Positions 7,002 to 59,049 of a DNA stretch of 64,000 bases are shown here, piece by piece (positions within the stretch are counted from its first letter, which is position 1; each line of letters starts with the position of its first letter). Origin of the DNA: a virus. The notes beneath the pieces were generated by a model. The model was not told the origin of the DNA, made no database searches, and saw only the letters and a program-made list of their open reading frames with translations. The stretch lies in IMG/VR virus record IMGVR_UViG_3300037258_001214, positions 1 to 64,000 of that record; one strand, given 5' to 3'. Both the position numbers and the translations under genes were made by a program.

Positions 7002-7041
7002 GTGCGTCCTTCCTCTCCCGCCGTTGCGGCGGTCAGCTCGG

Positions 7042-43139: not shown

Positions 43140-43798
43140 CCGGCCCGGCCCTGGAAGGATCTCCGGATATGAGCACATGCCAGGCGGAATCGCTGGACGG
43201 CCACGCGCACACCGGGGATGTCACCGAGTACGCGGGCATCTGCGTGCGGGGCCACGAGCGGCGCGGGCTGCTCTGCGGCGCGTGCGCCAGGCCGCTGCGC
43301 GACCGGGGGCCCGTGGCGGTGACGTGCGCCGAGTGCCCCGATGATGACCCCCGGCCGCGTGTTCTCGTGCTGGCCGAAGTCTGGGACGAGTACAGGGCGG
43401 GGCTCCCCGTCCCGGATCTGTGATGATCGGCCGCACCTACCTTGAGCGCGGCCGGCCGGTCGTCGTGCTGGTCCGCTGGGCCGGGAAAGGCCCGCGCAAC
43501 GTCCTGATCCGCCGCGAGGACGGCCAGCTGGTCGTGCGCCCGTTCCGCGGGTTGCGCCTGCCCCGGTAGGCTTAGCTCAGGCCGTTCGGTCACCCCTTTC
43601 CGCTGCTCAACCCTGATCGGTGAGTGCTCCGTGCTGTCCCCGCACAACCTCCTCGTCGCCGCGATCTTCATCCCTTACATGATCATGATGGGCACCCTGT
43701 TCGCCTACATCTGCTGGACCGGGCGCGAGCAGTCCGGGCGGGACCAGGACGACGCCGATGACGAGGCCGAGCCGCGCAGCCTGCCGCTGGCTGCGTGA
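43136..43798 (+). CDS. Three small genes (43136-43423, 43423-43569, 43631-43798)
   Basis: First two are coupled; the third is a single-TM peptide. Confidence 0.5.
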
Positions 43799-43892
43799 CC
43801 GGGCGTTACGCTGTCATCAGGCACCCCGCCGCTACGGCCAGGGGCGCCACTTCGCCCGCAACGGGACCGCACGACCCGCATGCGAGGCGAGG

Positions 43893-44681
43893 ATGACCGT
43901 TCCCGGCAAGCTCCAGGTCGACACAGGCACCGGCCACGTCACCGGCCCGGCGAGGATCTCGTTCAGCTCGCCGTTCCCGGTGCCGAACGGGGGCTGGGGC
44001 AGCGGCGCCATGATGGGCGTCGTCATGCACACCGAGGTGGGCGACAACCCGGGCACCGAGTCATGGTTCGAGAACCCGGCCGCTCAGGCCTCAGCGGACT
44101 TCGCGGTCGCCCAGGACGGCTCGATCGTCCAGATGGGCCCGGTCGGCAAGGGATGGGTGGCGTGGGCCGAAGCGAACGGCAACCGCGCGTGGTACTCGAT
44201 CGAGCACGCCGATGACGGCCACCCGGCCAACCCGCTGACCGCCGCGCAGATCACCGCGAGCGCACAGCTCGTCGAGGTGCTGGCGCGGTTCGCCGGCTTC
44301 CCGCTCCAGGTCAGCGACAGCACCAGCGTGAAGGGCTACGGCTGGCACGGGATGGGCGGCCAGGCGTGGGGCGGACACCTGAACTGCCCCGGCGACGTCC
44401 GCAAGGCCCAGCGGCCCCAGATCATCGCGCTGGCCATGGCCATCCGCCAGGGCGGGCAGCCCGCGGCGTCCGTCCGCGAGTGGACCACGGCGGGCATGTC
44501 GTCGCTGGCCCAGCTGGCACAGCAGGAGCACACCGAGCCTTCGACGATCCTGCGCCTGACCGCCCAGCACGCGCCCGTCTACCCGGGCCCGGTGGCCGCG
44601 TGGCTCAACGCCGTGTTCGCGGGCACCGCCGACCCGTCCAAGCCGATGCCAGCCGGACTGGCCCTGTACCTGCCCGCCTGA
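43893..44681 (+). CDS. Endolysin, N-acetylmuramoyl-L-alanine amidase
   Basis: VVMHTE, ASADFAVAQDGSIVQM, SIEH, GWH, HLNCPG. Confidence 0.85.
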   Translation: MTVPGKLQVDTGTGHVTGPARISFSSPFPVPNGGWGSGAMMGVVMHTEVGDNPGTESWFENPAAQASADFAVAQDGSIVQMGPVGKGWVAWAEANGNRAWYSIEHADDGHPANPLTAAQITASAQLVEVLARFAGFPLQVSDSTSVKGYGWHGMGGQAWGGHLNCPGDVRKAQRPQIIALAMAIRQGGQPAASVREWTTAGMSSLAQLAQQEHTEPSTILRLTAQHAPVYPGPVAAWLNAVFAGTADPSKPMPAGLALYLPA

Positions 44682-44691
44682 GGAGCCCGAG

Positions 44692-44922
44692 ATGACCTCA
44701 CCTGTTGCCCCCGTCGAGACCAAGACCGCCGCCGCAGCGTCCGTGAGCACCGTCACAGGCGTGATCACGTGGATGCTGGTCAGCTACATCCCGGCCTGGC
44801 ACGCGGGCATCCCCGCGCCGCTGGCGACCTTCCTGCCGTTCATCGTCGCCAGCGTCCTGGGAGCGGCTTCGGGCTGGCTGGCTCCGCACACGCCGCGCCC
44901 GGCCGTCCCGCCCGCGTCATGA
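44692..44922 (+). CDS. Putative holin
   Basis: PVETKTAAA start, two TM helices, LAPHTPR end; follows the endolysin. Confidence 0.75.
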   Translation: MTSPVAPVETKTAAAASVSTVTGVITWMLVSYIPAWHAGIPAPLATFLPFIVASVLGAASGWLAPHTPRPAVPPAS

Positions 44923-45287
44923 CCCGCTGGGGTGCCTATGTCGAGCAGCGCCTTGGCGAGCTGGAGCGCGGCGAAGGCGACTATACCGAGCTGAAGCAGC
45001 CATCGGCGGCGACCGTGGCGCACGCTCGCAAGGTAGCCGCCGAGACGTTCCGCGACACCACGCCGACGCCTTCAGTGGTGCCCACGGCAGATGGCGGGAT
45101 CGACTTCGCGTGGCACAAGAACGGCTACGACGTCGAGATCACCGTCACGGAGACCGAAGCGGACATCTGGGCCCGGCAGCGCGCTACCGGCGAGGAGTGG
45201 GCGAGCCCGCTTCCCGATCACGACCGGTGCTGCGTCCCTCGCGTCCTCGACGCGCTGGAGGCGACCGGGGTAGAACGCACCGGCTGA
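44919..45287 (+). CDS. Hypothetical protein
   Basis: PSVVPTADGGIDFAW motif. Confidence 0.55.
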   Translation: MTRWGAYVEQRLGELERGEGDYTELKQPSAATVAHARKVAAETFRDTTPTPSVVPTADGGIDFAWHKNGYDVEITVTETEADIWARQRATGEEWASPLPDHDRCCVPRVLDALEATGVERTG

Positions 45288-45445
45288 CATCCGTACCATA
45301 CTGACCAGCACCACCCTGTACCAGCGCCGCAACAGCGCCAGCGCAATCCCGGAACGGGAGATCCATTGGCACCATCAATGGCTCCCGCACGGGGATGCCG
45401 CCGACGTCGCAGTGCGCGATTCCTCGCGTGCGCGCACGAGGGCAT

Positions 45446-45943
45446 ATGAGCGCCCCGCCTCTTACCGATGCCGAGCGCGCCAGGATCCGCGAACTCCACG
45501 CACAGGGAATGTCGGCGAGCGCGATCGGCCGGGAGATCGGCCGCAGTCAGGGTGCCGTCTCCAAGAACGCCGCAGCCATGGGACTGTCGTTCGACCGCGC
45601 CCAGACCAAGGCGGCCACCGGGGCGAACGTGGCCGACAGCGCGGCGCGGCGGGCTGAGACGTCGCGGCGGTTCCTGGAGAAGGCCAACGACCTGCTCGAC
45701 CAGATGGACGGCCCGTTCGTGGCCTACAACTTCGGCGGCAAGGAGAACAGCTACAACGAGCACGAGTTCGAGAAGCCGCCCGTTGACGCGCTGCGGACGC
45801 TGGTGCAGGCCGCGGCGACCGCGTTCGACAGGCATATGGCCCAGGACCGGCACGACGCGGCCGGCGAGGAGGGCGGCTCGGCTGTCGACCAGTGGCTGCG
45901 GATGATGATGGGCGGCAACTCCCCGGCCGGCGGGACCCCCTGA
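45446..45943 (+). CDS. Terminase small subunit (HTH)
   Basis: N-terminal HTH; stop overlaps the terL start. Confidence 0.75.
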   Translation: MSAPPLTDAERARIRELHAQGMSASAIGREIGRSQGAVSKNAAAMGLSFDRAQTKAATGANVADSAARRAETSRRFLEKANDLLDQMDGPFVAYNFGGKENSYNEHEFEKPPVDALRTLVQAAATAFDRHMAQDRHDAAGEEGGSAVDQWLRMMMGGNSPAGGTP

Positions 45944-47265
45944 TGCTGGCCGCGCTGCAGGCCAAGGCACTCGACGCGGTGCCGCTGTGCACGCACCGGT
46001 TCAACATCTTCGAGGGCAGCGTCCGGTCGTCGAAGACGGTGACGTCGCTGCTGCCGTGGCTGGATTTCGTGCGGCACGGCCCGAAGGGGCCCCTGCTGAT
46101 GGTGGGGAAGACCGGGGACACGCTGAAGCGGAACACGATCGACCCGCTGACGGAGATGCTGGGCGCGTCCCGGTGCGCGCACAACATCGGGACGCGGGAG
46201 CTGAAGCTGCTCGGCCGCACGCTGTACCTGGCGTCGGCGAACGATGAGAAAGCGGCGGCGAAGATCGCGGGCCTGACGCTGGCGGGGGCGTACGGGGATG
46301 AGCTGTCGACGTGGCCGGAGTCGTTCTTCCGGATGCTCGGGTCGCGGCTGTCGCTGCCGGGCGCGAGGATGTTCGGGACGACGAACCCGGACAACCCGAT
46401 GCACTGGCTGAAAGCCGGCTATCTGGACCGGGCGAAAGTGCACCTTACCCAGGCCGGTGACGTGCTGGTCTCCGCTGACCCGGACGCGCTCGACCTGGCC
46501 AGGATGTCGTTCGTCCTGGCCGACAACCCGCACCTGCCGCCCGAGTACGTCGCCGCCCTGGCCGCGGAGTACACGGGCCTGTGGCACCGCAGGTACATCC
46601 TCGGCGAGTGGGTGATCGCCGAGGGCGCGGTGTATGACATGTTCGACCTGGCCCGGCATGTCGTCGGCGACTGCCCGGTGATCAAGCGGTGGATCTGCTG
46701 CTCGGTGGACTACGGGACGACGAACCCGTTCCATGCGCTGCTGATCGGCCTCGGCGTCGACAAGCGCTTGTACGTGGTCGCGGAGTGGCGGTGGGATTCG
46801 CGGAAGCGGCGCCAGCAGCTCAGCGACGCCCAGTACTCGGCGAAGCTCCGCGAGTGGCTGGCCAGCGTCCGGTACCCGGGTTCGATGCTGCACGGGGTGA
46901 CACCGGAGCGGATCATCGTGGACCCCTCGGCGGCGTCGTTCCGGGTGCAGCTGTTCCAGGACCGGATGCAGTCCATGATGGCCGAGAACGAGGTGCTGGA
47001 CGGGATCCGGCTGGTGTCGTCGCTGCTGTCGACGGGGCGGCTGCTGATCCACGAGTCGTGCACGGACCTCATCGGCGAGCTGCAGTCCTACAGCTGGGAT
47101 GAGAAGGCGGCGGCTAAGGGGGAGGATGTGCCGATCAAGAAGAATGACCACGGCGTGGACGCTCTGCGCTATGGCATTTACACGCCGCGCAGCGTGTGGC
47201 GGAACCTGATCATCCCGTCCGAGGCGCCCCCGAACTACCAGGATCATTTCGGGGTGCCGCTGTAG
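45943..47265 (+). CDS. terL: Terminase large subunit
   Basis: EGSVRSSKT, YGDE, TTNPDNP, SVDYGTTNP, VDPSAASF, NDHGVDALRY. Confidence 0.93.
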   Translation: MLAALQAKALDAVPLCTHRFNIFEGSVRSSKTVTSLLPWLDFVRHGPKGPLLMVGKTGDTLKRNTIDPLTEMLGASRCAHNIGTRELKLLGRTLYLASANDEKAAAKIAGLTLAGAYGDELSTWPESFFRMLGSRLSLPGARMFGTTNPDNPMHWLKAGYLDRAKVHLTQAGDVLVSADPDALDLARMSFVLADNPHLPPEYVAALAAEYTGLWHRRYILGEWVIAEGAVYDMFDLARHVVGDCPVIKRWICCSVDYGTTNPFHALLIGLGVDKRLYVVAEWRWDSRKRRQQLSDAQYSAKLREWLASVRYPGSMLHGVTPERIIVDPSAASFRVQLFQDRMQSMMAENEVLDGIRLVSSLLSTGRLLIHESCTDLIGELQSYSWDEKAAAKGEDVPIKKNDHGVDALRYGIYTPRSVWRNLIIPSEAPPNYQDHFGVPL

Positions 47266-47273
47266 CGAGCGGC

Positions 47274-47881
47274 TTGACGGGTGGTAGCACAACCGGCTAG
47301 GGTGGTACTACCACCTAGAGGGGAGCCCGAGATGCACCGCATAGCAGTCAAGATGCCAGCGGCGGCCGACCACGCCCCGCTGTCCGTGCTGAACCGGACC
47401 GGACGGGGCATCCGCACCACGATCGTCTGCTCGTGCGAGTGGATGCCGGCCAAGGCGCCCGCCGCCGCGTCCACGATGAACAACTCGCACATGGCGCACC
47501 GCCGCAAGCAGGGAATGCCCCGTGCGGACTACTCGGCCACCGTGTTCGGCGAAGGCCCGTGGATGGGCCTGACGTGGGATGAGTGGCACGACGCGCACGG
47601 CGACGAGAACGTGGACCCCTACACCGGGATGTCCCGTGCCTAACCAGCATGCCACCAAGCCCAGGGCCGTCCGGTTGCCGGGCGGCCTTGAGGCGCGCGT
47701 GAAGGCAGCTGCGGAAGCGGACGGCGGGACCGTCAACGCCTTCATCGTCGCCGCGATCGAGGAGAAGCTGGAGCGGCGCGGTAGCACCACCCCGGCCGGC
47801 CGGGTAGCACCACCCGCTGTCACCTTCACTGCGCCGCTCGACAGCCCGGATGCCCGTCGCCGGACGGGAGGAACCAGGTGA
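47274..47881 (+). other. Moron: promoter/operator, hypothetical gene (47332-47643) and RHH/Arc-like gene (47636-47881)
   Basis: TTGACG at 47274; palindrome GGTGGTA-C-TACCACC at 47301-47315; RAVRLPGGLEARVKAAAEADGGTVNAFIVAAIEEKL. Confidence 0.7.
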
Positions 47882-49112
47882 GCCCGTTCCGCAGTCGCCA
47901 GCAGCCGCCTCCGCGGCGGCAGCCGCATCCCGACGCGCGCATTGAGGCCGAGTTCCAGCGGATCATCTCGCTGCGGAAGGCCGTTGCCCGCAAAGAGGGA
48001 CTCGCCGCGAAGGACCACGAGCAGATCACCGCCATGCGAGAGCAACTCGCGCAGCACCCGACATGGGACCGGGCTCCGAAGCTGGCGGCAGCAGGTCGAT
48101 GCGCTCCTGGACGAAGTGGAGGAACTGGACGGCGACGTCACGAAGCTCCACGACGAGATCGCCGCGCGGATCGGCAAGATTGATGACGCCGACCTGGCGT
48201 GGCTGGAAAGCGGTCAGCCATGATCCCCGCCGAGCTGGACCAGATCCGGGACCGCCTCCGTCCGCACGGCCCGCACGTCTGCGATGACCGCTGCACCTGC
48301 CCGGTTCACGGCACGCCGCTGATCTACTGGCCAGCGGGGGACGATCACGCCTGCCGGGACATCACCTGCAAGTACGGACACGGTGGCGCGCTAGCGCCTG
48401 CAGCGGAACCTCCCGCCTCGTAAGCTACAGCTATGGCCGAACCGCGCGAGCTCATCATCACCGACGACGGGGAAGCGCTCTTCTCCGGCCATGTCGGCAT
48501 GCGCGTCCAACTGCCAGCCCAGCAGCTCCGGTGCTCTCCTGACCTCGCCGCCGCGATCCGCGAGCTGGACGCCGCCGCCGAGCCGGGCCGGCCCTCTCCG
48601 TCGCTGCTGATCTTCGGTGCCAGCGAGATCATCGCGGACGAGTCGGTGCTGTCCGGCGACTGGCACCTGGAGCAGGCCGGCCGCGTGATCCAGACCGGAC
48701 ACCTGGATGCAGCCTCGCTAGACTCGGCCGCCTCGTAAGCTACGATTCACCCAGGACGCCTCAGCCGCGTCCGTCCCGCGCTGCAACAGCGCTCAGATGA
48801 TCCCGCAACGGGTGCAAGCCTCACAGGAGATTGCGCCCCGTGCCGGAAACCTTGCCCGCGCCGCCTGATAACAGGCCGTACGTGCCGATGCACGAGCCCG
48901 GGCATGAGATCCGCACGCTATCCCTCGACGGCACCCGCAAGCACCGGTGGAAGCAGGTCGGCTGGCAGGGCCAGACCGGCGCCATCTACGGCCTCGGCGA
49001 GAAGCCGCAGCTGCACGAGCCGGGATCGTTCTCGCCGCTCTACGTGATGGTCGATTCTGACTACGTAGAGCTTCCCTCTGAGCTTTCGAGGGGAGGTGAT
49101 GCAGCGGAATGA
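47878..49112 (+). CDS. Four small accessory genes (47878-48223 with a +1 frameshift near 48079; 48220-48423; 48433-48738; 48831-49112)
   Basis: Coupled ORFs between terL and portal. Confidence 0.55.
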
Positions 49113-50925
49113 GTATGCCTTTCGTCCAGCCGTCAGCCATGCCGACCGGCTCCGCCACGCTCGGAGCACCGATCGGCCTGTCATCGACGCAGCCCATCGA
49201 CGACCGCCAGATGTCCATGCTTCCCGTGGGCAGCCAGCCATGGCCGCCACCGCAATACGATCCGGTCAGCTACCAGCACCGGATCTGGAATGCGTGGTGG
49301 ACCGGGGACCGCCAGATGCTGGCATGGGTTTATTACAACCTCGGAGCCAATTCGCCCTACGGTCGCGCTTTCTTTGCCACTACCGGTGAAAAGGGAATGC
49401 CGATGCCGCGCCCTGGCCAGTACAGGGGCGGCTTGCTGGGCAGTATTGAATACTCGTTCTGGTTAAGTGAGGCGAGCCCGTACCCCCAGGGGAGAAGCGC
49501 ACCCGCCTGCACGTCCCCATCGCCGGCGACATCGCGCAGACCTCCGCGTCGCTGCTGTTCTCCTCGCCGCCCGAGCTGAAGACGACGCTCACCGGGCCGG
49601 AGGGCGTCGCGAACCAGGCGTGGCTCAATGCCCTGATCGACGACGGCTTCCACACGCGGCTCCTGGAGGGCGGCGAGATGTGCGCGGGACTCGGCGGGGT
49701 GTACCTGCGGATCGTGTGGGACACCTCGGTCAGTGACAAGCCCTGGATCCAGCCGGTCTCCGCTGATGTCGCGGTGCCGCAGTTCGCCTACGACAAGCTC
49801 CGGTCGGCGACGTTCTGGCGGGTGCTGGAGGATAACGGATCGGACGTGGTCCGGCACCTGGAGATGCACGCGCCCGGTCAGAACCAGGTCATCCACGGTG
49901 TCTACTCCGGCGGCCAGTCCGACCTCGGCGAGATCGTCCCCATGTCCGATTTCCCGGCCACTGCGCGGATCTTCGCCGACCTGCAGGGCGACACGCTGAA
50001 CCTGCCCAACCTGCCGTTCGACGCGTCCACGGTCACCTACATCCCGAACCTGAAGCCCAACAGGATCTGGCGGGACCTCGGCCCGGAGCTGTGGCCGCTG
50101 GGCCGGTCGGATTTCCAGGGCGTCGAGCCGCTGATGGACGCCCTGGACCACACCTACTCGAACTGGATGCGGGACATCGACCTGGCGGCCATGCGCCTCA
50201 TCGTCCCGGCCGAGTACCTGGACAATATCGGGAGGGGAAAAGGGGCGGTTTTCGAGCCTGACCGCCGCGTGTTCACGCCCCTGTCGATGCTCCACGACGG
50301 AGGCGGCGCGCCGTCGATCACCGCCAACCAGTTCGCGATCCGCTGGCGGGAACATTCCGAGACCTGCCAGGACCTGGCCAACCGCATCGTCCAGGAAGCC
50401 GGGTACAGCGCTCAGTCCTTCGGCGACTACCAGGGCAACGCCCCGACCGCGACGGAGATCGAGGCCCGGGAGCGCACCAGCCTGATGACCCGGAAGAAGA
50501 AGATCCTGTACTGGCGGCCGTCGCTCCAGGACGCCATCTACTCGCTGATGTGCGTGGCCAGGCTGTACTTCGGCGCGTCCGCGATCACGCCGGAACGGCC
50601 GGATATCAACTTCCCCGCCGTGGCGCTCCCCGACGAGCAGGCCCTGGCGCAGACCGTGGCCACGCTGGCAGGCGCCGAGGCTGCGTCGAAGGCCACCTTG
50701 GTCGCGATGGCGCACCCGGAGTGGACGAAAGAAGAAGTCAACGCGGAGGTCCAGCAGATCCGCGCTGAGATCGGCACCGAGCTGGCCGCGCACGCGAAGA
50801 TCGCGCTGGCCCAGCCGCCGGGGACGTCGATCCAGGAGATGGAGGCGGGGCTGGAGCAGATGGCCCCGGTCACCGACGACACGGGTGCAGATGAGGGTAC
50901 CGGCGACCAGGAAGGCGGTTCGTGA
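49109..50925 (+). CDS. Portal protein, split by an 8-nt coding gap at 49463-49470 (~602 aa if joined)
   Basis: 5' frame ends ...IEYSFW; 3' frame resumes GEPVPPGEKRTRLHVPIAGDIAQTSASLLF...GRSDF...TATEI; lies after terL. Confidence 0.88.
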
Positions 50926-52099
50926 TGGCAGATCACTATGACCCGGCGCAGGCGCGGGACAATCGCGGCGAGTGGACCAGCGGCGCGGGCGCGGTGGCGA
51001 GGAACGTCACCGGGAGGGGCGGCGGCCGGAAGGCGGCAGGCCCCCCGAAGGTGAAGAACCCCGGCGGCCGGAACATGTACGCGCGGGACGACACCCCCGA
51101 GTACCAGAAGCGCGAGGGCACCAAGCCGAACATCCACGTTCCGGAGCCGGCTCCGGCGTCGGCGCGGCGCGCCCCGGCGGGCAGCAGGACGGCCAAGCCC
51201 GCTAAGCCGGCCCGCCCGGCCCGGCCGCCGAAGGCCAGGTTCGCCTCGCACGGCACCGGCGCCGCGTCGCAGTCCGGCGGTCCCGGGCCGGTCATCCCGA
51301 AGTGAGGCCGCCATGGGCACGCTGAACGGCAAGCAGCGCAAGGCGCTCCCGAGGGACAGCTTCGCGCTCCCGGGCGGCGGCCCGGCGGGCGCGGACGCCT
51401 ACCCGCTGGCCGGGCCGGACGGCCGGCCGTCGCAGGCGCACGCCGTGGCTGCGCTGGCCCGGGTCGCGAAGAACGGCACCCCGGCGGAGAAGCGCGAGGT
51501 ACGCGCCGCGGTGCGGAAGAAGTTCCCGGGCCTGCCGAGCTCGCAGGGCAACGGCGGCAGCCAGGCGGCCGCGCACAACCAGCGGGTGGACCGGCGGGCC
51601 GGGAAGAGCAGGGCCTCGTGAGCGTCCTCGGCAGGCCCGCGAGCCAGCCTGACAAGCCCGCGACGAAGACCGCCTCGTCGCCGTCGTCCTACCGGATCGT
51701 CGAGGAGGGCCGCAGGTACTGGAGCGACCGCCCGACGAGCACGGGCAAGACCGCCGGGATCGCGTTCGGGACACCGGGCTCGTTCACGGAGTGCGTTGAC
51801 CGCACGACCCCGCACCTCGGCGGGGGCGCCAAGGGTTACTGCGCTGAGCGCTACCACGATGCCACGGGCACGTGGCCGGGCCGGCATGGAGGCAAGTGAT
51901 GGCACCGAAGGCACCCAGGCCCAGGAAGGCGCCGAAGGGCAAGAAGGGCGCAGCGAAGCCCGCGGCGTCCTCATCGGCTCCGCCGCAGTCGGCACCGGCC
52001 GACGCGAAGGCCAACGGGTGGAAGCCGCCGTTCCCCGGTGCTAAGCCCCCGTTCAAGGAGCCCGCGGCGAATCCGGGCAAGAAGGACAGGGGCAAGTGA
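50925..52099 (+). CDS. Four small basic Lys/Pro/Ala-rich proteins (50925-51305, 51313-51621, 51618-51899, 51899-52099)
   Basis: Coupled ORFs; motifs ARDNRGEW, RKALPRDSFALP..YPL, FTECV...KGYCA. Confidence 0.6.
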
Positions 52100-53102
52100 C
52101 GGCCACGCTCACGCACACTTTCACGCAGACCCACAACGTCATCAAGCTGGCGAACCCGTTCCTTGCGTGCGGGACGTGCGGGAAGTGCGTCGAGGCGCGC
52201 CACGATGACCGCTGCGGCTGTGATGATGAGGGCCCGCTTCTCCTGTTCCCGTGCTGCCACCGCGGCGAGTACCGGGACCTGTGCCCATCGTGGAGTCCGG
52301 TCGACGGCTGCACCTGCCTGAAGGTCCTCGGCCACGTCCCGCACCCCGCCGAACTGCCGAGGGGCGCGTGATGGCCGACCGCGTAACCATCGTCCTCGCC
52401 AGCGACGACGCCGCCGAGACCCGCGACTGCTCGTTCACCGTCGATGACTACGACAAGCGCACGGACCCGGACGTCTACGGAGATCTGGACGCCTACCTCG
52501 ACCAGCGTGCCTACCCGAAGCTGCGCGCCGAGTGGCGTCCCGACTTCCACGAGGTCTCGCGGCATGTCGAGCGCGGGGTGATCTCCGTTGGCTGACAAGG
52601 CAGTCCCGTCCCTGGGCAACACCGGGCCCCGCGACTTCTCCGCCCAGTTGCACTCCAACTTCACCGCCCCGGTACCTCAGCCTCACATCACAGTGCACAT
52701 CTACCTCTCCGATGAGGAAGCAGCGAAGGTGAGCCCGGCTGACGTATCCGCAGCGGTAGGCGAGCTGCTGGCCCGGCTCGGGGTGGATCAGGGCCAGGTC
52801 GACGTGTCCGGGCCGGAGCGTGCCGGGTGAAGCCGAGCGCAGGCGTGATGAAGGTCGGCGCGACGGCCGCCGGCTCGCGGCCGGTCACCGTCGAGTTCGA
52901 CGCCGGCGACCAGAATCCGGTGGAGATCTACGAGGCGTTCGAGCGGATGCTTGCCGCGTGGCCTGACGCCAGGGTGCCGCTCAAGCGCGGCGCGGCCAAG
53001 GGCACCGTCTGCGGCTGCGGTGCCGATCACGGCGGATGGGTGTGCAGCCACTGCACGGTGCCGGATGCAGTGGCCCGGACCCTATCGGAGCCGCAGCCGT
53101 GA
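52096..53102 (+). CDS. Four small hypothetical genes (52096-52371, ~52371-52595, 52588-52830, 52827-53102)
   Basis: Overlapping stop/start codons. Confidence 0.5.
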
Positions 53103-54373
53103 ACGCGCAGCCCGCACCCGCTGCAGCCGACCGCGCGCCCGCGTCGGACCTGATCGCCACCCTGCGGGAGAAAGCCCCCCGCGCGGCGATGACCCTGGCA
53201 GCCGCCCAACTCGCGTGGCCCGCTACCGCGCGGGTCCGTTCCTGGGCCCGCGACCGGTCTACCTACACGGTCAAGGTCCACGGCACGGACGGCATCTACG
53301 ACGACCTGCACGAGTGGGTGCTGTCCCTGCTGGCCCCGAAGGAACAGCGGGCCCTGGTGGCGTGGTCGACCAGGCGCGGGATGCTCATGGAAGCCCCCGT
53401 CAGCGGCCGGGCATCCGAGCCGCCGCCCCCGCCGCTTCGCCTGCGGTACGACGGCACCCGCGAGCAGGCCATCGCCGTGGGCGGCCACAAGATCCGCGTC
53501 GTCGTGGCCGAGCACGCCAGCAGCGATGAGGAGCGGTGGAAGCCGCCCGAGATCGTGTTCACCGCCCGGTCGGCCGCCGCGCGCTCGGCGCTGCTGCGCG
53601 AGATCGAGGGCGTGCTGCGCCGCAGCCGCCAGTCCGAGCGGAAGCCCTCGTTCCGGATGCTGGACAAGTGGGGCGACTGGGAGAAGCTCGACGACCTGCC
53701 GCCGCGCACCCTGGACAGCGTGATCCTGCCGGACGGCCAGCTTGAGCGGCTGACCGCCGACGTGGCCCGGTTCCTGGCCGCCGAGCAGGACTACGTGCGC
53801 CGCTGCGTCCCGTGGCATCGCGGCTACCTGTTCGAGGGACCGCCCGGCACCGGCAAGACGTCCGTGGCCCGGGCCATCGCCAGCCACTTCGGGATGGACG
53901 TGTGGTACCTCCCGCTGGCCGACGTCCGCAAGGACGCCGAGCTGCTGCGGGTCGCCACCCGGATCGGCCCGCGCTCCATGCTGCTGCTGGAAGACGCCGA
54001 CGTGTTCCATGCCGCCACGAAGAGGGACGACGACAGCCCCGACAAGGTGACGCTCTCCGGGCTGCTCAACACGCTGGACGGCATCGCCACCCCGCACGGC
54101 CTGCTCACCGTGCTGACGACGAACCGGCCCGGAGCGCTCGACGACGCGGTGACCAGGGCCGGGCGGATCGACCTGACCGAGCACTTCGGCCTCGCCGATG
54201 CCAGGCAGGTCGAGCAGCTCATCAGGCGCTGGTACGAGCGCGGCGCGATCGGGCCCGGTGGCATCCCTGAGATTTCCGGTATCGCCCCGGCCGACGTGAT
54301 CGAGGCGTGCAAGCGCCACGACGACCCGGCGCACGCGATCGGCCAGCTACTCACCCTGGAGCCGCAGCCATGA
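53099..54373 (+). CDS. AAA+ ATPase, BCS1-like
   Basis: RTLDSVIL, PWHRGYLFEGPPGTGKTS, LLLEDAD, TLSGLLNTLDG, TTN, RAGRID. Confidence 0.88.
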   Translation: MNAQPAPAAADRAPASDLIATLREKAPRAAMTLAAAQLAWPATARVRSWARDRSTYTVKVHGTDGIYDDLHEWVLSLLAPKEQRALVAWSTRRGMLMEAPVSGRASEPPPPPLRLRYDGTREQAIAVGGHKIRVVVAEHASSDEERWKPPEIVFTARSAAARSALLREIEGVLRRSRQSERKPSFRMLDKWGDWEKLDDLPPRTLDSVILPDGQLERLTADVARFLAAEQDYVRRCVPWHRGYLFEGPPGTGKTSVARAIASHFGMDVWYLPLADVRKDAELLRVATRIGPRSMLLLEDADVFHAATKRDDDSPDKVTLSGLLNTLDGIATPHGLLTVLTTNRPGALDDAVTRAGRIDLTEHFGLADARQVEQLIRRWYERGAIGPGGIPEISGIAPADVIEACKRHDDPAHAIGQLLTLEPQP

Positions 54374-54927
54374 CCGCGATCGACTACGACACCGAGTTCA
54401 TCGAGTCGGGTCCAGCGTCGCCGATCCTGGCGCTGTCGATCGGGATGATCCGCGACGACGGCGCGACCTACTACGCGGTGGTCGACGACCGCGACGCGAT
54501 CACGCTGGCGCTAATGAACCCGTGGCTTGCCGAAAACGTCATCCCGTCTCTCCCGGTCCAGTTCTTCGTCGGCGGGCAGCGGTGGACCTGGGCCACCGGC
54601 CACCCCGACTACAGCGCGGTCAAGCCCCGGCGTCAGATCGCGGCCGAGGTCGCGGAGTTCATCACCAGCACGCCCGACGTGGAGCTGTGGGCCGACTACT
54701 GCGCCTACGACCATGTGGTCCTGGCCCAGCTGTTCGGCCGCATGACCGACCTGCCCAGCGGCGTGCCGATGTGGACGCACGACCTCCGGCAGGAATGGGA
54801 CCGCCTCGGCCGGCCCGGCCTGCCGTCGCTGTCGGGGATCACCGAGCACAACGCCCTCGACGATGCCCGCGAGTGCCAGTTCCGGCGCCGCTGGCTGGCC
54901 AGCCGCCAGGAAGAAGGCACCCCATGA
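54370..54927 (+). CDS. 3'-5' exoribonuclease, Rv2179c-like (DEDDh)
   Basis: YDTEFIE, LSIG, WADYCAYDHVVL, HNALDDA. Confidence 0.88.
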   Translation: MTAIDYDTEFIESGPASPILALSIGMIRDDGATYYAVVDDRDAITLALMNPWLAENVIPSLPVQFFVGGQRWTWATGHPDYSAVKPRRQIAAEVAEFITSTPDVELWADYCAYDHVVLAQLFGRMTDLPSGVPMWTHDLRQEWDRLGRPGLPSLSGITEHNALDDARECQFRRRWLASRQEEGTP

Positions 54928-55097
54928 TGCACCCCTCAGAGAACCTGGTCCGGCGCGCGGAGTCGTTCGCCGAGATCTGCATCTGCACCCCGGTCCGCAT
55001 GGTCCGCGGCTGCCCCCGTCATTCCCCAGGCGATTCCGGAACCCCGGAATCGCACCACCACATGTTGATCCGCATCATCGAGAACCAGGAGAAGATC

Positions 55098-56217
55098 ATG
55101 ACTGAGCTTTCGCAGGCCCAGACCGACATCAACACCGCCGTGGAGGTGGTCACCGGACTGCTGACCGACGTCGGGGACAAGCTGGCCGACGTCAACACCC
55201 AGCTCGGCACCCTGGCCACCGACCTGCTGGCTATCCAGCAGCAGATCGCCAACGGCCAGCCGGTCGACACGAGCGCGCTGAACACCATGGTCGGCAACGT
55301 CGCAGCCGTCCAGGCGAGCCTCGACAGCACGAGCGCGGCGCTGGACACGGCGGTCGCGAACGTGACCGCTGTCGCCAGCCCGCCCGCCCCGGCTGTCCCG
55401 GCCGAGCCCGTTGCCGGCGGCGACACCGGAAGCGCCAGCTAGGCCGTGGCCACCGCAACGGCACCGATCACCAGCGAGGAAGCGGCCACGCTGTTCCGCC
55501 TGGAAGCGCACGTCGTCCTGCGGCCGGCCGAGCAGGACAAGCTCGGTGCCACCGACCTCTTCGAGGCCGTCCAGGATCTCCTGGAGCGCAAGGGCGTCAA
55601 CCGGGCGGACTGCTTCCTGGAGGCGATGCGGACCGACCCTGGCAGTCGCTATGCACAGGACCACACCCACGACAGCCCGGAGCCGTAGCCATGGCAGGCA
55701 AGCACGTCCCCTCGTCAGCCGCCCCAGGCTCGACGCAGGACGCATCGGGGAAGGTCGGCGCCCATTACGCGGCGCCGACCTCCTCCGGGGCGGACTCGAC
55801 CGCTGACATGCGGGACGGGGACTCCGACTCGGGATCGTGGGCACCGGACGAGCCCGCGACGACGGTTCCGGGGTCGGCGGCGAGCGAGGCCCTGCGCGGC
55901 GGCGGCACGCCGTGATCCCGTTCGGCGAGCGCTCCCTCATCCAGGTGTGGTGGACCGACACGACCAACGTCGCGGGCGGCTGGCATGACGAGGGAGACCT
56001 CGCCGCCTTCGCCACGAACGGCGCCTGGGAGGCCAGCAACACCGGCTGGCTCGTCTACGAGGACGAGTTGTGCATCGTGCTCGCCGGCCGGATGACCGAC
56101 GACGGGAAGCATGTCGGCCTCGTCGAGCGGATCCCGAAGGCCGCGATTACCTCCAGGACGGCCTGGTCCTCGCTCGGAAACATAGACCGGCCCGTGTCAT
56201 CGCTGGCCAATCCATAA
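55098..56217 (+). CDS. Four small genes (55098-55442 coiled-coil; 55446-55688; 55691-55915; 55912-56217)
   Basis: Packed ORFs; AGGAG RBS before 55098. Confidence 0.55.
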
Positions 56218-56282
56218 CCGCTATCTATACGATTTCGGCAACCGGGCCGCAACGGCCGCCTAGCCCTGTAACAGGAGTACTC

Positions 56283-57269
56283 ATGCACGACACCAGGCCA
56301 GCGCCCGGGGAGATCATCGGCTACCGCAAGGACGGCCGGCCTATCCGCCTGGCGGCCGGCGGGTCTGAGACGGCGGTGGAAACACCCCCGGCTCCTCCGT
56401 CCGCACCCGCGCCGCCCCAGCAGCCCCCGCCAGCTCCGCCCGCCGCGCCGCCAGCACCGGCCCAGCCTCAGCAGCAGGCCCCGGCCGCCCCTGCGCAGCC
56501 TGCCGCACCAGCAGCACCTGCACCGGCTGCGGAACCCGACTGGAAGGCTCAGGCCGAGACCTCCCGGCAGGAAGCCGTCACCGCCCGCGCCGAAGCCGAC
56601 CGGCTCAAGGCCGAGGCCGAACGGTGGAAGCAGCAGTCCCGCCAGCAGGAAGCCCGCTCCAAGGCCAACCACCAGCAGGTGCGGGGCCTGGAGGGCGTGG
56701 TCCGGCAGATCGCGGAGAAGCTCGAGATCCCCTTCGACGACAAGCCGGACCCCGAAGAGGTCGCCCGCAGGCTCACCGAGGCGCAGACGGTCGCCCGGCA
56801 GAGGACCGTCGAGCTGGCCGTCTACACCACCGCGGCCGAGGCCGGGGCGATGGCCGCGGCGCTGCTGGACTCCCGCGAGTTCATGGCCCGCACCGCGATG
56901 CTCGACCCGGATGCGGCGGACTTCCCCTCCCAGGTGGCCGACCTGGTGAGGGAAGCGGCGCAGATGCCGAAGTACCAGGCCCCGGCTCCGCCTCCGCCGC
57001 CCGCGCTGACACCGCAGGTCACCCAGCCGCCGTCCCAGCAGCAGCCCGCCGCCCAGTTCCAGCAGCCCCCGGCGCAGCCGCCCGCCGCGTCCAGCGGCGC
57101 CGACTTCAACGGCGCCCCGGGCGGGAACCGGATGTGGACCCAGGCCGACTACGACTACTGGACCGCGCCGGGACGTGACCGGGACGGGTCGATCATGTCC
57201 AAGGCGATCGCGGACGGCCTGCTGGTCAACCTGGGGGTCGGGAAGCCGTCAAGGAAGTCACGGCGGTAG
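56283..57269 (+). CDS. Capsid scaffolding protein
   Basis: IIGYRKDGRPIRLAAGGS start, Pro/Gln-rich linker, coiled coil, LLDSREF, SGADF. Confidence 0.8.
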   Translation: MHDTRPAPGEIIGYRKDGRPIRLAAGGSETAVETPPAPPSAPAPPQQPPPAPPAAPPAPAQPQQQAPAAPAQPAAPAAPAPAAEPDWKAQAETSRQEAVTARAEADRLKAEAERWKQQSRQQEARSKANHQQVRGLEGVVRQIAEKLEIPFDDKPDPEEVARRLTEAQTVARQRTVELAVYTTAAEAGAMAAALLDSREFMARTAMLDPDAADFPSQVADLVREAAQMPKYQAPAPPPPPALTPQVTQPPSQQQPAAQFQQPPAQPPAASSGADFNGAPGGNRMWTQADYDYWTAPGRDRDGSIMSKAIADGLLVNLGVGKPSRKSRR

Positions 57270-57273
57270 GGGG

Positions 57274-58811
57274 ATGCCCGGTCCGGACGTCTTGCCCCCG
57301 CTGGCGTATTTCCAGCACCAGATAGTGCTCATCCCGAAGCAGTTCGGCTACGTGGGCAGCTACACCCGTGGCATGCTCGACGTGGAGCAGGTGCAAGACC
57401 GCGCCTTCGGTCAGATGATGTACCGGTTCACCACCAGCGTCCTGTCCGGGCGTACCGTCACCGAGACGCAGCGGGCGTCGGTCAAGGTGCCTGCCAGCTG
57501 GTGGCAGCACCTGAAGAGGACGGCTGGCGAACGGCACGCGGAATGGATCCGGAAGCCGCACAGCCCGTGGCTGCTGTTCATCCTCCCGCTCGACATCCTC
57601 ACCATCGTGCCCCGCGTCTACCTCGTCCCGTGGTTCCTGCGCCGGCATCCGGTGAGGTACGCCGAGATCACCGCCGAAGTCCGCTTCACGCGCGACACGC
57701 TCTACCCCGGCGCCGATGTCTCGCTTCCGCATGACCGCTTCGGCGTGCCGGTCATGTGGGAGTCGCTGGAGATCGCGCCGATGGCCCCGGACGGCGAGCC
57801 GTGGACGCTGGACGACTATGGGGCGCCGCGCTTCGTCAGCCGCCATGAGCTTCTCGGCGAGATCTACCGGGACACGGACCTGATCAACGCTAGGGGGGCC
57901 TTCGGCGGCATGATCACGCCGGACGGTGTCCTCGACTGGCTCGGCCAGCACGGCGTCAGCGTTGACCAGCTCGTCGCCAGGAGTGCCCTGTGAGCGGGCC
58001 GCGAGGTGCGGCATGAGCCTGACCACCGACCCGGAGGACCTGCGCCTCGGCCGTGGTGCTGACCGGGAGCCTGGCCCGCAGAACACGGCCTACCTGGTCC
58101 TGTCCGACGGGGAGCGCGCCAAGGGCTTCGTGCGGCCGGTGCGGCTGTCCTACCGGCACGCCGGCATCCCCGGCCCGCGCTGGCCGCTCCGCGATCTCAC
58201 CGGCGAGGAGCAGGAACGCTACGCAGGCAGCGGCTACGCCAGGTACGAGGAATACCCGCCTGACGACCTGTCCGCGCTCGGCCGGTTCTGGACCCAGGCG
58301 CAACTCGACGGCATCGGCAAGGGCTGCCGCGCGGTCACGACCATGAACCGGGCCATCGCGGAGACTTACAGCCGCACGCCCGGCTTCTACGGGGCCACCT
58401 ACTGCTGCTCCTGCCGTCTTCACCTGCCCGTGGGGCCGCAGGGAGAGTTCACCTGGATCGAGCCTGACGGGTCGGAGGCGGGGAACCGCGTTGGCACCTG
58501 AGCAGGCGGAGGACGCCTACCCCGTCGCCTACTGTGCTCCCGGCCGGCGCTTCGCCGCCGCGCTCACCCTGATGTTCAAGGGCGAGGAGGTCGCGCGGAT
58601 CGTCGAGCACCCGTGGCTTGAGGGGACCGCGGGCGTCTACGTCGTGGCCGAAGATCGGCTGGACCTGACCAAGCTGCTCCCGGTCAGGTGCGAGGTCTCC
58701 GAGCCGTTGCCGTGGCGTGACCCCAACTGGGTGTACGGGGCGCTCGTGAACACGCCCATACGGGGCATCTGCCCCGCTGTAGGCGTAACGGGCATCTCGG
58801 CGTTACCATGA
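57274..58811 (+). CDS. Three accessory genes between scaffold and capsid (57274-57993, 58013-58501, 58491-58811)
   Basis: Middle gene has YLVLS..ERAKGFVRPVR..AETY..FYGATYC; the last has TTA as penultimate codon. Confidence 0.6.
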
Positions 58812-59049
58812 GCACGACGCACCCCGCGTCCGCGTACAGGCCGCCAGGCCTCGCGGCGGGGAGCGGTAGCCGCCGGAACGGCGAGCAGTCCGCCCGCAAC
58901 GGGTAGCACACCTCACTTGAGCAGGAGCTACCTCTTGCACGCGGTACTCGCCTGAACGGCGGCTTTGCTTTACCCGGAATTGCCGTAACGGCATTTCAAA
59001 TTCACCCGCAACGGGATTCTCGCGAATTCCCTGAAGGGGTGAAATAGAC
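58804..59049 (+). promoter_or_regulatory. Major-capsid leader: TACCAT -10-like box and five G-NAA-C-type hairpins (one imperfect)
   Basis: cgccg-gaa-cggcg 58871; cccg-caa-cggg 58893; cgcc-tgaac-ggcg 58949; tgccg-taa-cggca 58981; cccg-caa-cggg 59005. Confidence 0.7.

What the first reader, a model, noticed from the sequence alone, without database searches (positions are those of the whole stretch)
43807..59015. Recurrent late-leader element: TACnnT box followed by tandem G-NAA-C hairpins
Seen upstream of five late blocks. Endolysin: TACGCT 43807; cccg-caa-cggg 43855. terS: TACCAT 45294; gcgccg-caa-cagcgc 45324, tcccg-gaa-cggga 45347. Portal block: TACGAT 48741; gcgctg-caa-cagcgc 48778, cccg-caa-cggg 48802. 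Scaffold: TACGAT 56228; cgg-caa-ccg 56236, ggccg-caa-cggcc 56245, cctg-taa-cagg 56265. Capsid: TACCAT 58804; five hairpins at 58871-59015. Stems differ in sequence but keep pairing (CCG/CGG versus CTG/CAG), the loop is NAA on the sense strand, pairs are usually 19-23 nt apart, and copy number is highest before the capsid gene. Inference: an undescribed cis-regulatory RNA motif (boxB/put-like antitermination or a translational enhancer), or phased operators for a late activator.
Basis: partly seen in the sequence, partly recalled or inferred. Interest (0 to 1): 0.72.

Follow-up and report, generated by a model that had tools for sequence, protein, structure and literature searches.

The report
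Twin-hairpin RNA leader of actinophage late genes
A pair of tiny, nearly identical RNA hairpins (stem CCG/CGG, loop NAA) sits in front of ten late-gene blocks of this prophage and in front of scaffold and terminase genes of many other phages of Actinobacteria; it is in no RNA library and looks like a switch that sets how well the ribosome-binding site can be reached.

Summary
The window is the first 64 kb of a 94-kb, 70.6% GC provirus.

- **Anatomy.** The motif has two parts: hp1 (GCCG-NAA-CGGC, with a variable outer stem), 15-28 nt to the next loop, then hp2 ((A)CCCG-NAA-CGGG(T)).
- **Copies.** A covariance model finds exactly ten copies, all on the sense strand of late intergenic DNA. Six lie in the window.
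- **Enrichment.** There are 17 hairpins in 1,140 nt, against 0.1 expected.
- **Promoter box.** A -10-like TAnnnT box precedes hp1 in 18 of 29 copies in this phage family.
- **Distribution.** The pair is conserved in five metagenomic relatives. It occurs in 85 IMG/VR stretches (12 for a reversed control) and in Mycobacterium phage TChen.
- **Two contexts.** In one, hp2's 3' arm is itself the Shine-Dalgarno sequence (scaffold and terS genes). In the other, hp2 lies 21-54 nt upstream, and the sequence after it forms a competitor helix that is 5-13 kcal/mol stronger and buries the Shine-Dalgarno sequence (mean z 5 against shuffles).
- **Databases.** Rfam has no match.

Best reading (about 0.5): an RNA operator or switch for an unidentified hairpin-binding factor that controls late-gene translation. 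DNA operators, antitermination and passive stabilisers remain possible. Earlier scan notes saw this element from the neighbouring window, and noted analogous but unrelated leader hairpins in other phages.

The parts
43807..43812 (+). TACGCT, a -10-like hexamer ahead of element A
   Evidence: Read directly. This class of box is enriched upstream of hp1.
43824..43869 (+). Element A, ahead of the amidase endolysin gene (ATG 43893). hp1 is a variant, gccg-CTA-cggc, at 43828-43838. hp2 is cccg-CAA-cggg at 43855-43865.
   Evidence: CM hit of 23 bits, E 0.015, not in the training set. Amidase_2 domain in the downstream protein. In the fold, the 5' flank of hp2 pairs with the GAGGCGAGG Shine-Dalgarno region.
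45294..45299 (+). TACCAT, a -10-like hexamer ahead of element B
45322..45362 (+). Element B, ahead of the HTH_38 small-terminase-like gene (ATG 45395). hp1 is at 45324-45338 with one C.A mismatch. hp2 is tcccg-GAA-cggga at 45347-45359. A near-inverted copy of hp2 (ctcccgcacgggga) abuts the start codon.
   Evidence: CM hit of 33.1 bits, E 2e-4, not in the training set. Pfam result. Fold.
48741..48746 (+). TACGAT, a -10-like hexamer ahead of element C
   Evidence: The orthologous box in relative G001 is TACGCT.
48776..48816 (+). Element C, ahead of the small gene that opens the portal block (likely GTG 48840, Shine-Dalgarno AGGAG at 48825-48829). hp1 is gcgctg-CAA-cagcgc at 48778-48792. hp2 is cccg-CAA-cggg at 48802-48812.
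   Evidence: CM hit of 42.2 bits. The competitor fold is 8.2 kcal/mol better than the hp2 fold, z 3.0.
56228..56233 (+). TACGAT, a -10-like hexamer 11 nt before hp1 of element D
   Evidence: The same box lies 7-10 nt before hp1 in the scaffold leaders of G001-G004.
56242..56279 (+). Element D, ahead of the scaffold gene (ATG 56283). hp1 is ggccg-CAA-cggcc at 56245-56257. hp2 is cctg-TAA-cagg at 56265-56275, and its 3' arm is part of the Shine-Dalgarno AGGAG (56273-56277).
   Evidence: CM hit of 34.7 bits. The same CCUG/CAGG+AG form occurs in all six genomes of the family. The product carries the scaffold motif WKQQSRQQEARSK.
58804..58809 (+). TACCAT, a -10-like hexamer followed by gagcacgacgc. 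The same arrangement occurs at contig position 67700.
58868..58907 (+). Element E. hp1 is cgccg-GAA-cggcg at 58871-58883. hp2 is cccg-CAA-cggg at 58893-58903. A degenerate inverted copy follows, so that 58862-58970 can fold into one long hairpin.
   Evidence: CM hit of 38.4 bits. Fold. In relatives G002 and G003 the equivalent element precedes a small gene that is reduced to six codons here.
58948..58972 (+). Terminator-like hairpin, cgcc-TGAAC-ggcg, followed by a CTTTGCTTTA tail, between elements E and F
   Evidence: Terminator scan. It is conserved in contig L089.
58978..59019 (+). Element F, ahead of the major capsid gene (TTG 59050). hp1 is tgccg-TAA-cggca at 58981-58993. hp2 is (a)cccg-CAA-cggg at 59004-59015.
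   Evidence: CM hit of 34.9 bits. Phage_capsid_4 domain in the downstream protein.
59001..59042 (+). Competitor structure of the capsid leader. The anti-Shine-Dalgarno TTCACC (59001-59006, overlapping hp2's 5' arm) pairs with GGTGAA in the Shine-Dalgarno sequence (59034-59042). It encloses a hairpin, GGGATTC (59013-59019) with GAATTCCC (59024-59031), that uses hp2's 3' arm.
   Evidence: RNAalifold consensus over nine capsid leaders. The inner helix is 96% paired, with three pairs changed on both sides and four G.U cells. The competitor fold is 8.9 kcal/mol better than the hp2 fold, z 4.6.

Best explanation
The element works as RNA, in the 5' leaders of late mRNAs.

Each unit carries two copies, sometimes three, of one fixed mini-hairpin: core CCG / NAA / CGG closed by a G-C pair. 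hp1 folds on its own. In this phage family it often starts within a few nucleotides of the predicted transcript start. hp2 is wired to the ribosome-binding site in one of two ways.

- **Class I** (the scaffold gene here; scaffold and terS genes in many other phages). hp2's 3' arm plus AG is the Shine-Dalgarno sequence itself, and the start codon follows 6-13 nt later.
- **Class II** (the other late blocks here). hp2 lies 21-54 nt upstream. Its arms and 5' flank are complementary to the sequence that follows, so a stronger helix that buries the Shine-Dalgarno sequence competes with hp2.

I infer that a factor specific for this hairpin binds hp1 and captures hp2. The factor is most likely a dimeric or oligomeric protein made late in infection, or a conserved host protein. 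In class II leaders this would free the Shine-Dalgarno sequence and turn translation on. In class I leaders it would cover the Shine-Dalgarno sequence and turn translation down.

Shown here: the motif, its enrichment, its orientation, its conservation, the Shine-Dalgarno overlap, and the built-in competitor helices. Inferred: that a trans-acting factor exists, and the direction of each effect.
For: - **Copy number and orientation.** Ten copies, all on the sense strand and all in late intergenic DNA. Across 72 non-redundant phage loci oriented by the motif, NAA-loop hairpins number 398 on the sense strand against 85 antisense.
- **Conservation.** The pair is kept at orthologous leaders in five relatives. 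It occurs in 85 IMG/VR stretches against 12 for the reversed pattern. It occurs in Mycobacterium phage TChen, before the annotated scaffolding gene.
- **Fixed core, covarying outer stem.** The core sequence is fixed. The outer hp1 pairs covary, and CCG/CGG changes to CUG/CAG in 9 + 3 cases.
- **Shine-Dalgarno overlap.** hp2's 3' arm is the Shine-Dalgarno sequence in about half of 104 instances.
- **Third hairpin.** Twenty-two of 47 class I genes have a third hairpin in the first 70 nt of the coding sequence. That is four times the density further downstream, and the encoded amino acids vary.
- **Class II competitor fold.** hp2 is absent from every minimum-energy fold. The native tail gives a competitor 5-13 kcal/mol better, against 0.4-2.5 for dinucleotide-shuffled tails (mean z 5.0, p 7e-7). 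Forcing hp1 and hp2 raises Shine-Dalgarno accessibility from 0.28 to 0.47 in 16 of 17 leaders.
- **Capsid leaders.** They share an anti-SD:SD helix plus an inner hairpin with compensatory and G.U changes.
- **G.U against A.C.** Among single mismatches, G.U exceeds A.C in NAA hairpins relative to control loops (124:83 against 1077:1237, odds ratio 1.7, p 3e-4).
- **Spacing.** Loop-to-loop spacing of 15-28 nt is too loose for phased DNA sites.
Against: - No binding factor was identified. Pfam scans of neighbouring genes found no RNA-binding domain.
- The targeted G.U against A.C test, on hp1 next to a perfect hp2, was inconclusive: 20 against 14 stretches, about 13 against 11 lineages, almost all at the fourth pair.
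- The accessibility gain on forcing hp2 is partly expected from breaking any stable fold.
- Many of the class II leaders are homologous to each other, so the 17 tests are not independent.
- Copy J (contig 82826) has no downstream gene on its strand.
- Relative G005 has three copies in antisense orientation, 22 bp apart, between two + strand genes. That arrangement looks like DNA operators.
- Opposite regulatory signs for class I and class II are an inference from architecture only.
Confidence: 0.5

Rival explanations
1. A passive RNA element with no dedicated binding factor. hp1 is a 5'-terminal stem-loop that protects processed or primary late transcripts from 5'-end-dependent decay by RNase E or RNase J. 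hp2 and its competitor helix tune translation through folding order alone, or mark a processing site between the upstream genes and the abundant scaffold and capsid messages.
For: - hp1 starts 7-17 nt after the -10-like box in 12 of 18 cases, which places it at or near the transcript's 5' end.
- The element sits where late messages typically begin or are boosted: before terS, scaffold and capsid.
- hp1 is in the minimum-energy fold of every class II leader.
- No binding protein was found.
Against: - A stabiliser needs a stable stem, not a fixed CCG/NAA/CGG sequence kept across phages of 55-74% GC.
- It does not explain a second identical hairpin that is thermodynamically disfavoured yet conserved.
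- It does not explain the third copy inside coding sequence.
Confidence: 0.2
2. Sites on double-stranded DNA. Either paired operators for a late-gene regulator (a repressor acting downstream of the -10 box, like the orientation-specific stoperators of Cluster A mycobacteriophages), or promoter elements in which GNAAC serves as an ECF-type -35 box.
For: - Each site is a near-palindrome, and the sites come in pairs.
- G005 has three copies exactly 22 bp apart, in antisense orientation, in an intergenic region.
- In four relatives a GCG-NAA-CGC hairpin abuts the -10 box of the promoter upstream of the capsid region.
- G-NAA-C equals the ECF -35 core (own knowledge). G005 encodes a Sigma70_r4_2 protein just before terS.
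- A.C variants of hp1 are about as common as G.U variants.
Against: - Spacing varies from 15 to 28 bp.
- The asymmetric centre always reads NAA on the sense strand.
- hp2 overlaps the Shine-Dalgarno sequence, and in class I it lies mid-operon about 10 nt after the upstream stop codon, with no room for a promoter.
- The downstream complementarity and covarying competitor helices have no meaning for DNA binding.
- G000 has no sigma region 2 and only sub-threshold region 4 matches. The G005 protein has no homologue in G000 or in the other loci.
- The same core in phages of very different hosts is unlike immunity operators.
Confidence: 0.12
3. A processive antitermination RNA, put-like or nut/boxB-like. 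The two hairpins, alone or with a bound protein, modify RNA polymerase so that it reads through terminators within the late region.
For: - The architecture is two hairpins just downstream of promoter-like boxes.
- A terminator-like hairpin with a U-rich tail lies between elements E and F.
- In lower-GC relatives hp1 is the tip of a canonical terminator (long stem plus U tract) in front of terS or scaffold genes.
- G-NAA-C could fold as a GNRA-like loop, as boxB does (own knowledge).
Against: - Ten copies in one late region, and tight coupling to the Shine-Dalgarno sequence, are not needed for antitermination.
- Only 3 of 104 hp1 copies in the first set have a U-rich tail.
- The scan finds terminator-like sites at no more than the chance rate in 43-60 kb.
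- No boxA-like element or N/Q-like gene was seen.
Confidence: 0.1

Closest known systems
Start-associated sequences (SAS) and extended SAS (ESAS) of Cluster K mycobacteriophages (Pope et al. 2011, PMC3203893)
   Same: Both are short conserved repeats in 11-19 copies per actinophage genome. Both lie in one orientation, a few bases before start codons, and include the Shine-Dalgarno sequence. About half of the SAS copies are preceded by an inverted repeat with a variable spacer. The function is unknown, and a role in translation initiation is suspected.
   Different: The sequence is unrelated: SAS is GGGATAGGAGCCC, and ESAS is a 17-bp inverted repeat. SAS sites lie in the non-structural half of the genome, whereas these lie in the late, structural half. 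Here both parts are the same mini-hairpin with an NAA triloop. This element also occurs across many phage groups, not in one cluster.
Phage Mu Com-mom translational operator (own knowledge)
   Same: A small protein binds a hairpin upstream and shifts the mRNA away from a structure that sequesters the translation start. That is the logic I propose for the class II leaders.
   Different: Mu has a single site for one gene. No Com-like zinc-finger protein was identified here, and there is no sequence relation. Binding has not been shown for this element.
Coat-protein and repressor operators at ribosome-binding sites (MS2/R17 coat-replicase hairpin, T4 RegA and gp32) and post-transcriptional autoregulation of P22 scaffolding protein (own knowledge)
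   Same: A hairpin that contains the Shine-Dalgarno sequence is a natural repression site. A scaffold gene regulated after transcription has a precedent in P22.
   Different: Those operators are single sites with other sequences. Direct RNA binding by P22 scaffold protein has not been shown, to my knowledge. Here the same hairpin also precedes terS, capsid, tail and lysis genes.
Lambda nut boxB with N protein, and HK022 put RNA
   Same: These are small hairpins, or a pair of hairpins, in promoter-proximal leaders. The boxB loop is purine-rich and GNRA-like, and G-NAA-C could fold similarly.
   Different: boxB has a 5-nt loop on a 5-bp stem, with boxA alongside. put RNA is about 70 nt with two larger stem-loops. 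Both occur twice per genome and are not tied to the Shine-Dalgarno sequence.
Stoperators of Cluster A mycobacteriophages (L5 gp71 sites; own knowledge)
   Same: Many copies spread through intergenic DNA, in one orientation relative to transcription.
   Different: Stoperators are 13-bp asymmetric single DNA sites specific to one immunity group. These are palindromic pairs with a core shared by phages of different hosts, and they have RNA-level competitor structures.

Membership tests
Any Rfam 15 family | A covariance-model match at the gathering score, or at least a weak match | tested here: not met
   No hits at gathering score over the 64-kb window. No hits at E <= 5 over 43700-59200.
Cluster K SAS/ESAS | The 13-bp sequence GGGATAGGAGCCC 3-8 bp before start codons, with 17-bp imperfect inverted repeats upstream | tested here: not met
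   The repeats here are CCG-NAA-CGG hairpins. The paper's consensus was read. Only the layout is alike.
Lambda-type nut site (boxA + boxB with N) | A boxB hairpin with a 5-nt GNRA-like loop, a boxA element, one site per early operon, and an N-like arginine-rich protein | tested here: not met
   The loop is 3 nt (5 nt only if the G-C pair opens). There are ten copies, all in late leaders. No boxA was seen in the aligned flanks. An N-like gene was not searched for exhaustively.
HK022 put RNA | About 70 nt, with two stem-loops separated by one nucleotide, acting on terminators downstream | tested here: inconclusive
   Two hairpins are present, but they are 11-15 nt each and 15-28 nt apart. The scan shows terminators at only the chance rate. 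Action on RNA polymerase cannot be tested here.
ECF sigma-factor promoter | A GGAAC-like -35 box, a fixed 16-17 nt spacer and a CGT-like -10 box, with a cognate sigma factor | tested here: not met
   GNAAC is present, but it is embedded in a dyad, the spacing varies, and no CGT box sits at a fixed distance. G000 has no sigma region 2. The G005 region-4 protein is not shared.
Intrinsic terminator | A stable GC-rich stem followed by a U tract | tested here: not met
   Only 3 of 104 hp1 copies have 5 or more T in the next 9 nt. hp2 never does. A subset of lower-GC contigs does embed hp1 in a true terminator.
Stoperator-type DNA sites | Asymmetric double-stranded DNA sites bound by the prophage repressor, specific to one immunity group | not testable with these tools
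   Orientation bias is shared. However, the core is the same in phages of 55-74% GC and of several host genera, which argues against an immunity-specific site.
Protein-responsive translational switch (Com-mom type) | Two mutually exclusive mRNA folds, one of which sequesters the start region, and a protein that selects between them | tested here: inconclusive
   The two mutually exclusive folds and Shine-Dalgarno sequestration are supported. The selecting protein is unknown.

The most novel reading that the evidence does not exclude
The mini-hairpin is a portable address read by a conserved protein of the head-assembly module. The leading candidate is the scaffolding protein, whose conserved W-K-x-K-A-R-x-Q-E-x-R-A-K helix would act as an arginine-rich RNA-binding peptide on a GNRA-like G-NAA-C loop. 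Free scaffold would then shut off its own class I leader, while opening the class II leaders of capsid, portal, tail and lysis genes. That would make an assembly-coupled translational feedback circuit spanning the whole late regulon.
Probability: 0.1. Interest if true: 0.85.

Novelty: new variant of a known kind. Interest (0 to 1): 0.7.

Why it matters
Late-gene control in phages of Actinobacteria is poorly understood, and these hosts lack Hfq, CsrA and ProQ. This element matters for four reasons.

- It is a compact, sequence-defined RNA module. It recurs before scaffold, terminase, capsid, tail and lysis genes, and it is shared by phages of Mycobacterium, Gordonia, Actinomadura and uncultured high-GC hosts.
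- It has a built-in two-state design around the ribosome-binding site.
- It gives a concrete, testable handle on how virion protein ratios are set.
- It points to an unidentified hairpin-binding factor.

It can be studied at once in a laboratory system: TChen-like phages on M. smegmatis mc2 155. It may also explain the related, still unexplained start-associated sequences of Cluster K phages. If it is modular, it could serve as an expression-control part for actinobacterial genetics.

Tried and rejected
- **Megablast of 43.7-60 kb against named phages.** No match.
- **Rfam.** Nothing, at gathering score or at E <= 5.
- **tRNA scan.** No tRNA genes.
- **Sigma-70 promoter scan.** No two-hexamer promoters. 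Terminators occur at the chance rate, apart from the site at 58948.
- **Pattern scan of bacterial genomes.** Most hits are coding (Arg-Asn-Gly repeats in transposases and tgt) or chance. Only a few are prophage leaders, in Gordonia, Actinomadura and Mycobacterium aquaticum. There is therefore no sign that hosts use the motif.
- **Phage-encoded sigma factor.** G005 has a region-4 protein, but G000 has no homologue and no region 2.
- **Pfam on genes at 37-45 kb of G000 and at the left end of G005.** No RNA-binding domain.
- **hp1 as a terminator.** Not general, at 3 of 104.
- **Targeted G.U against A.C scan.** Inconclusive.
- **Scaffold W-motif as the binder.** The motif tends to co-occur with the hairpins: 31 of 48 class I genes have it, and it is absent from four hairpin-less relatives. 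But phiGD21-1 has hairpins without the motif, class I also precedes terS genes, and shared descent confounds the comparison.
- **Literature.** Keyword searches and searches by the motif letters found no description. The one hit was a primer.
- **Single-protein search for scaffold relatives.** It reached only close kin.

Full report
**Setting.** The window is the first 64 kb of a 94,375-bp, 70.6% GC record. IMG/VR classes the record as a provirus, 93% complete. Early genes run leftward over roughly 1-37 kb. Lysis, packaging, head and tail genes run rightward from about 37 kb to 83 kb. Pfam confirms the following gene products at the listed start positions:
- 43893: an amidase endolysin
- 45395: an HTH_38 small-terminase-like protein
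- 45892: the large terminase
- 49678: the portal
- 53036: an AAA ATPase
- 59050: the major capsid protein

**The observation.** The unit has two parts. hp1 has the core GCCG-NAA-CGGC, with a variable outer stem of up to 9 bp. hp2 is (A)CCCG-NAA-CGGG(T). Loop-to-loop distance is 15-28 nt, with modes at 20-21 and 23-24.

A covariance model built from 93 non-redundant pairs finds exactly ten copies in the contig at E <= 0.016. All are on the + strand, and three were not in the training set. The next best hit scores 19 bits, on the - strand. Four of the ten copies lie beyond the window, at contig positions 67750, 70270, 81293 and 82826.

Enrichment is extreme. Seventeen hairpins fall in 1,140 nt of late intergenic DNA, against 0.1 expected.

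**The TACnnT box.** In this phage and its five relatives, TAnnnT lies within 60 nt upstream of hp1 in 18 of 29 units, against a background of 4-11%. The narrower TA[ACG][GC]AT is present in 12 of 29, against 1-3%. In twelve units the box ends 7-17 nt before hp1, so hp1 would sit at or near the 5' end of a transcript. No -35 hexamer is conserved. That is usual for actinobacterial promoters (own knowledge). The promoter reading is plausible but not shown.

**Relatives and distribution.** Capsid relatives of 76-93% identity, from soil-type metagenomes, keep the pair before the capsid gene and at other orthologous leaders. The strand bias is strong: for example 8:0, 8:0 and 15:6 for the core, against 0-2 for a reversed control. 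More distant relatives, at 44-64% capsid identity, lack it.

An exact-pattern scan of IMG/VR gives 85 stretches, against 12 for the reversed pattern. The contigs range from 55% to 74% GC. Named carriers are Mycobacterium phage TChen and its Thetabobvirus kin, where the pair lies directly before the annotated scaffolding gene, and M. abscessus prophages. In bacterial genomes most matches are coding or chance. The few genuine ones are prophage leaders in Gordonia, Actinomadura and Mycobacterium.

**Two contexts.**

*Class I.* hp2's 3' arm plus AG forms the Shine-Dalgarno sequence, and ATG follows 6-13 nt later. This is the commonest form elsewhere. It precedes scaffolding genes and, less often, small-terminase genes. 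In this phage family it is used only for the scaffold gene, always with the compensatory CCUG/CAGG stem that creates AGGAG. Twenty-two of 47 class I genes carry a third hairpin in the first 70 nt of the coding sequence. That is about four times the downstream density, and the encoded residues vary.

*Class II.* This covers the other nine units here. hp2 lies 21-54 nt before the start codon. hp1 is in every minimum-energy fold, and hp2 is in none. Instead, hp2's arms and 5' flank pair with the following sequence in a helix that covers the Shine-Dalgarno sequence. Three results support this:
- The native tail makes the competitor fold 5-13 kcal/mol better than the hp2 fold. Dinucleotide-shuffled tails give only 0.4-2.5 (mean z 5.0; 16 of 17 leaders at 3/100 shuffles or fewer).
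- For nine capsid leaders, RNAalifold returns TTCACC (overlapping hp2's 5' arm) paired with GGTGAA of the Shine-Dalgarno sequence. This helix encloses a hairpin that uses hp2's 3' arm and shows compensatory and G.U changes.
- Forcing hp1 and hp2 raises the unpaired probability of the Shine-Dalgarno region from 0.28 to 0.47.

**RNA or DNA.** The following favour RNA:
- All copies lie on the sense strand, and the NAA centre is asymmetric.
- hp2 overlaps the Shine-Dalgarno sequence.
- Class I copies sit mid-operon, about 10 nt after the upstream stop codon.
- Spacing is loose.
- Competitor helices are built into the leaders.
- G.U exceeds A.C among single mismatches, relative to control loops (odds ratio 1.7, p 3e-4).

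The following count against RNA, or are neutral:
- A targeted scan found A.C variants of hp1's fourth pair about as often as G.U variants.
- G005 has three antisense copies with a 22-bp phase between two + strand genes.
- In four relatives a GCG-NAA-CGC hairpin abuts a -10 box.

I put about 0.8 on function as RNA.

**Mechanism.** The fixed core and loop, which are the same in hp1, hp2 and the third copy, argue for recognition by one specific factor rather than for stability alone. hp2 is conserved yet thermodynamically disfavoured, which argues that something captures it. The simplest model is a hairpin-binding protein with two or more RNA-binding surfaces. It would open class II leaders and occlude class I leaders. 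Capture of hp2 during transcription, before the competitor strand has been made, would make this feasible (inference).

No candidate protein emerged. The scaffold proteins downstream of class I leaders, including the one in this window, share a basic tryptophan-containing helix. Relatives without hairpins lack it. There are counter-examples, however, so scaffold as the binder remains a low-probability idea.

**Comparison with known systems.** The closest described thing is the SAS/ESAS system of Cluster K mycobacteriophages. It has the same layout, but an unrelated sequence and a different genome region, and its function is also unknown. The proposed logic resembles the Mu Com-mom operator and ribosome-binding-site operators of the MS2 type. 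Membership of nut, put, ECF-promoter, terminator or any Rfam family fails, or cannot be shown.

Earlier notes of this scan recorded the same ten-copy element from the neighbouring window. They also recorded analogous but sequence-unrelated hairpin arrays in scaffold and capsid leaders of other phages. I treat those notes as leads only.

**Verdict.** This is a real, strongly non-random and previously undescribed actinophage leader motif. It most likely acts as an RNA switch or operator on translation initiation of late genes.

Noticed in passing
window 58862-58972: Element E is followed by a degenerate inverted copy of itself, so about 110 nt can fold into one long hairpin. It ends in a terminator-like stem (cgcc-TGAAC-ggcg) with a U-rich tail. 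In relatives G002 and G003 the equivalent element precedes a real small gene. Here only a six-codon remnant is left (TTG at 58935 to TGA).
   Followed up: partly
window 59050; L058, L089 and L056 at the aligned position: The major capsid gene starts with TTG here. At the aligned codon, relatives have ATG, TTG, ATT or ATC, and only some have a GTG two codons downstream. This suggests weak or non-standard start codons on a very abundant protein.
   Followed up: no
L060:3162-3323 (relative G005): Three copies of the hairpin (TCCCG-AAA-CGGGA twice, plus a variant) lie exactly 22 bp apart. They are in antisense orientation, between two + strand genes, next to a TTGACA-N18-TACTAC promoter-like site on the - strand. 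This is the only operator-like arrangement I saw.
   Followed up: partly
L060:4675-5379 (relative G005): A 235-aa protein with a Sigma70_r4_2 domain is encoded just before terS. It has no homologue in G000 or in any other fetched locus.
   Followed up: partly
L057, L058, L059, L060 (relatives G002-G005), upstream of the E-type element; weakly at window 58779-58803: A GCG-NAA-CGC hairpin lies 1-3 nt before the -10-like box (TAGTAT, TATGAT, TAAGAT or TAGGAT), followed by c-agcacgac. This looks like a conserved promoter architecture for the capsid-region transcript.
   Followed up: no
IMG/VR loci L065, L073, L082, L108, L110, L122, L135 (about 57% GC): The two hairpins lie inside the start of a coding sequence (MSADAADAGTANGAVPGTGEG...), where they encode A-G-T-A and P-G-T-G. 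Either the true start is further downstream, or the RNA element has been absorbed into the gene.
   Followed up: no
IMG/VR loci L293, L303, L306, L308, L310, L314, L323: In lower-GC contigs hp1 forms the tip of a canonical intrinsic terminator (long stem plus U tract). This sits immediately before hp2, the Shine-Dalgarno sequence, and a P27-type terS or scaffold gene.
   Followed up: partly
contig 82826-82900 (beyond the window; L282:18826-18900): The tenth copy follows the last rightward gene, which encodes an HNH-type protein. It has no downstream gene on its strand. An exact inverted copy of hp2 (CCGTTCCGGG) makes a 10-bp stem facing the convergent gene. It may be an operon-end structure.
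   Followed up: partly
window 53036-54373: An AAA ATPase gene sits inside the head-morphogenesis block, between the portal and scaffold genes.
   Followed up: no
window 7018-7032 and 22573-22583, - strand: Single G-NAA-C hairpins (ccgccg-CAA-cggcgg and cccg-GAA-cggg) lie on the sense strand of leftward early genes. They give the best sub-threshold hits of the covariance model, at 19 and 16 bits.
   Followed up: no
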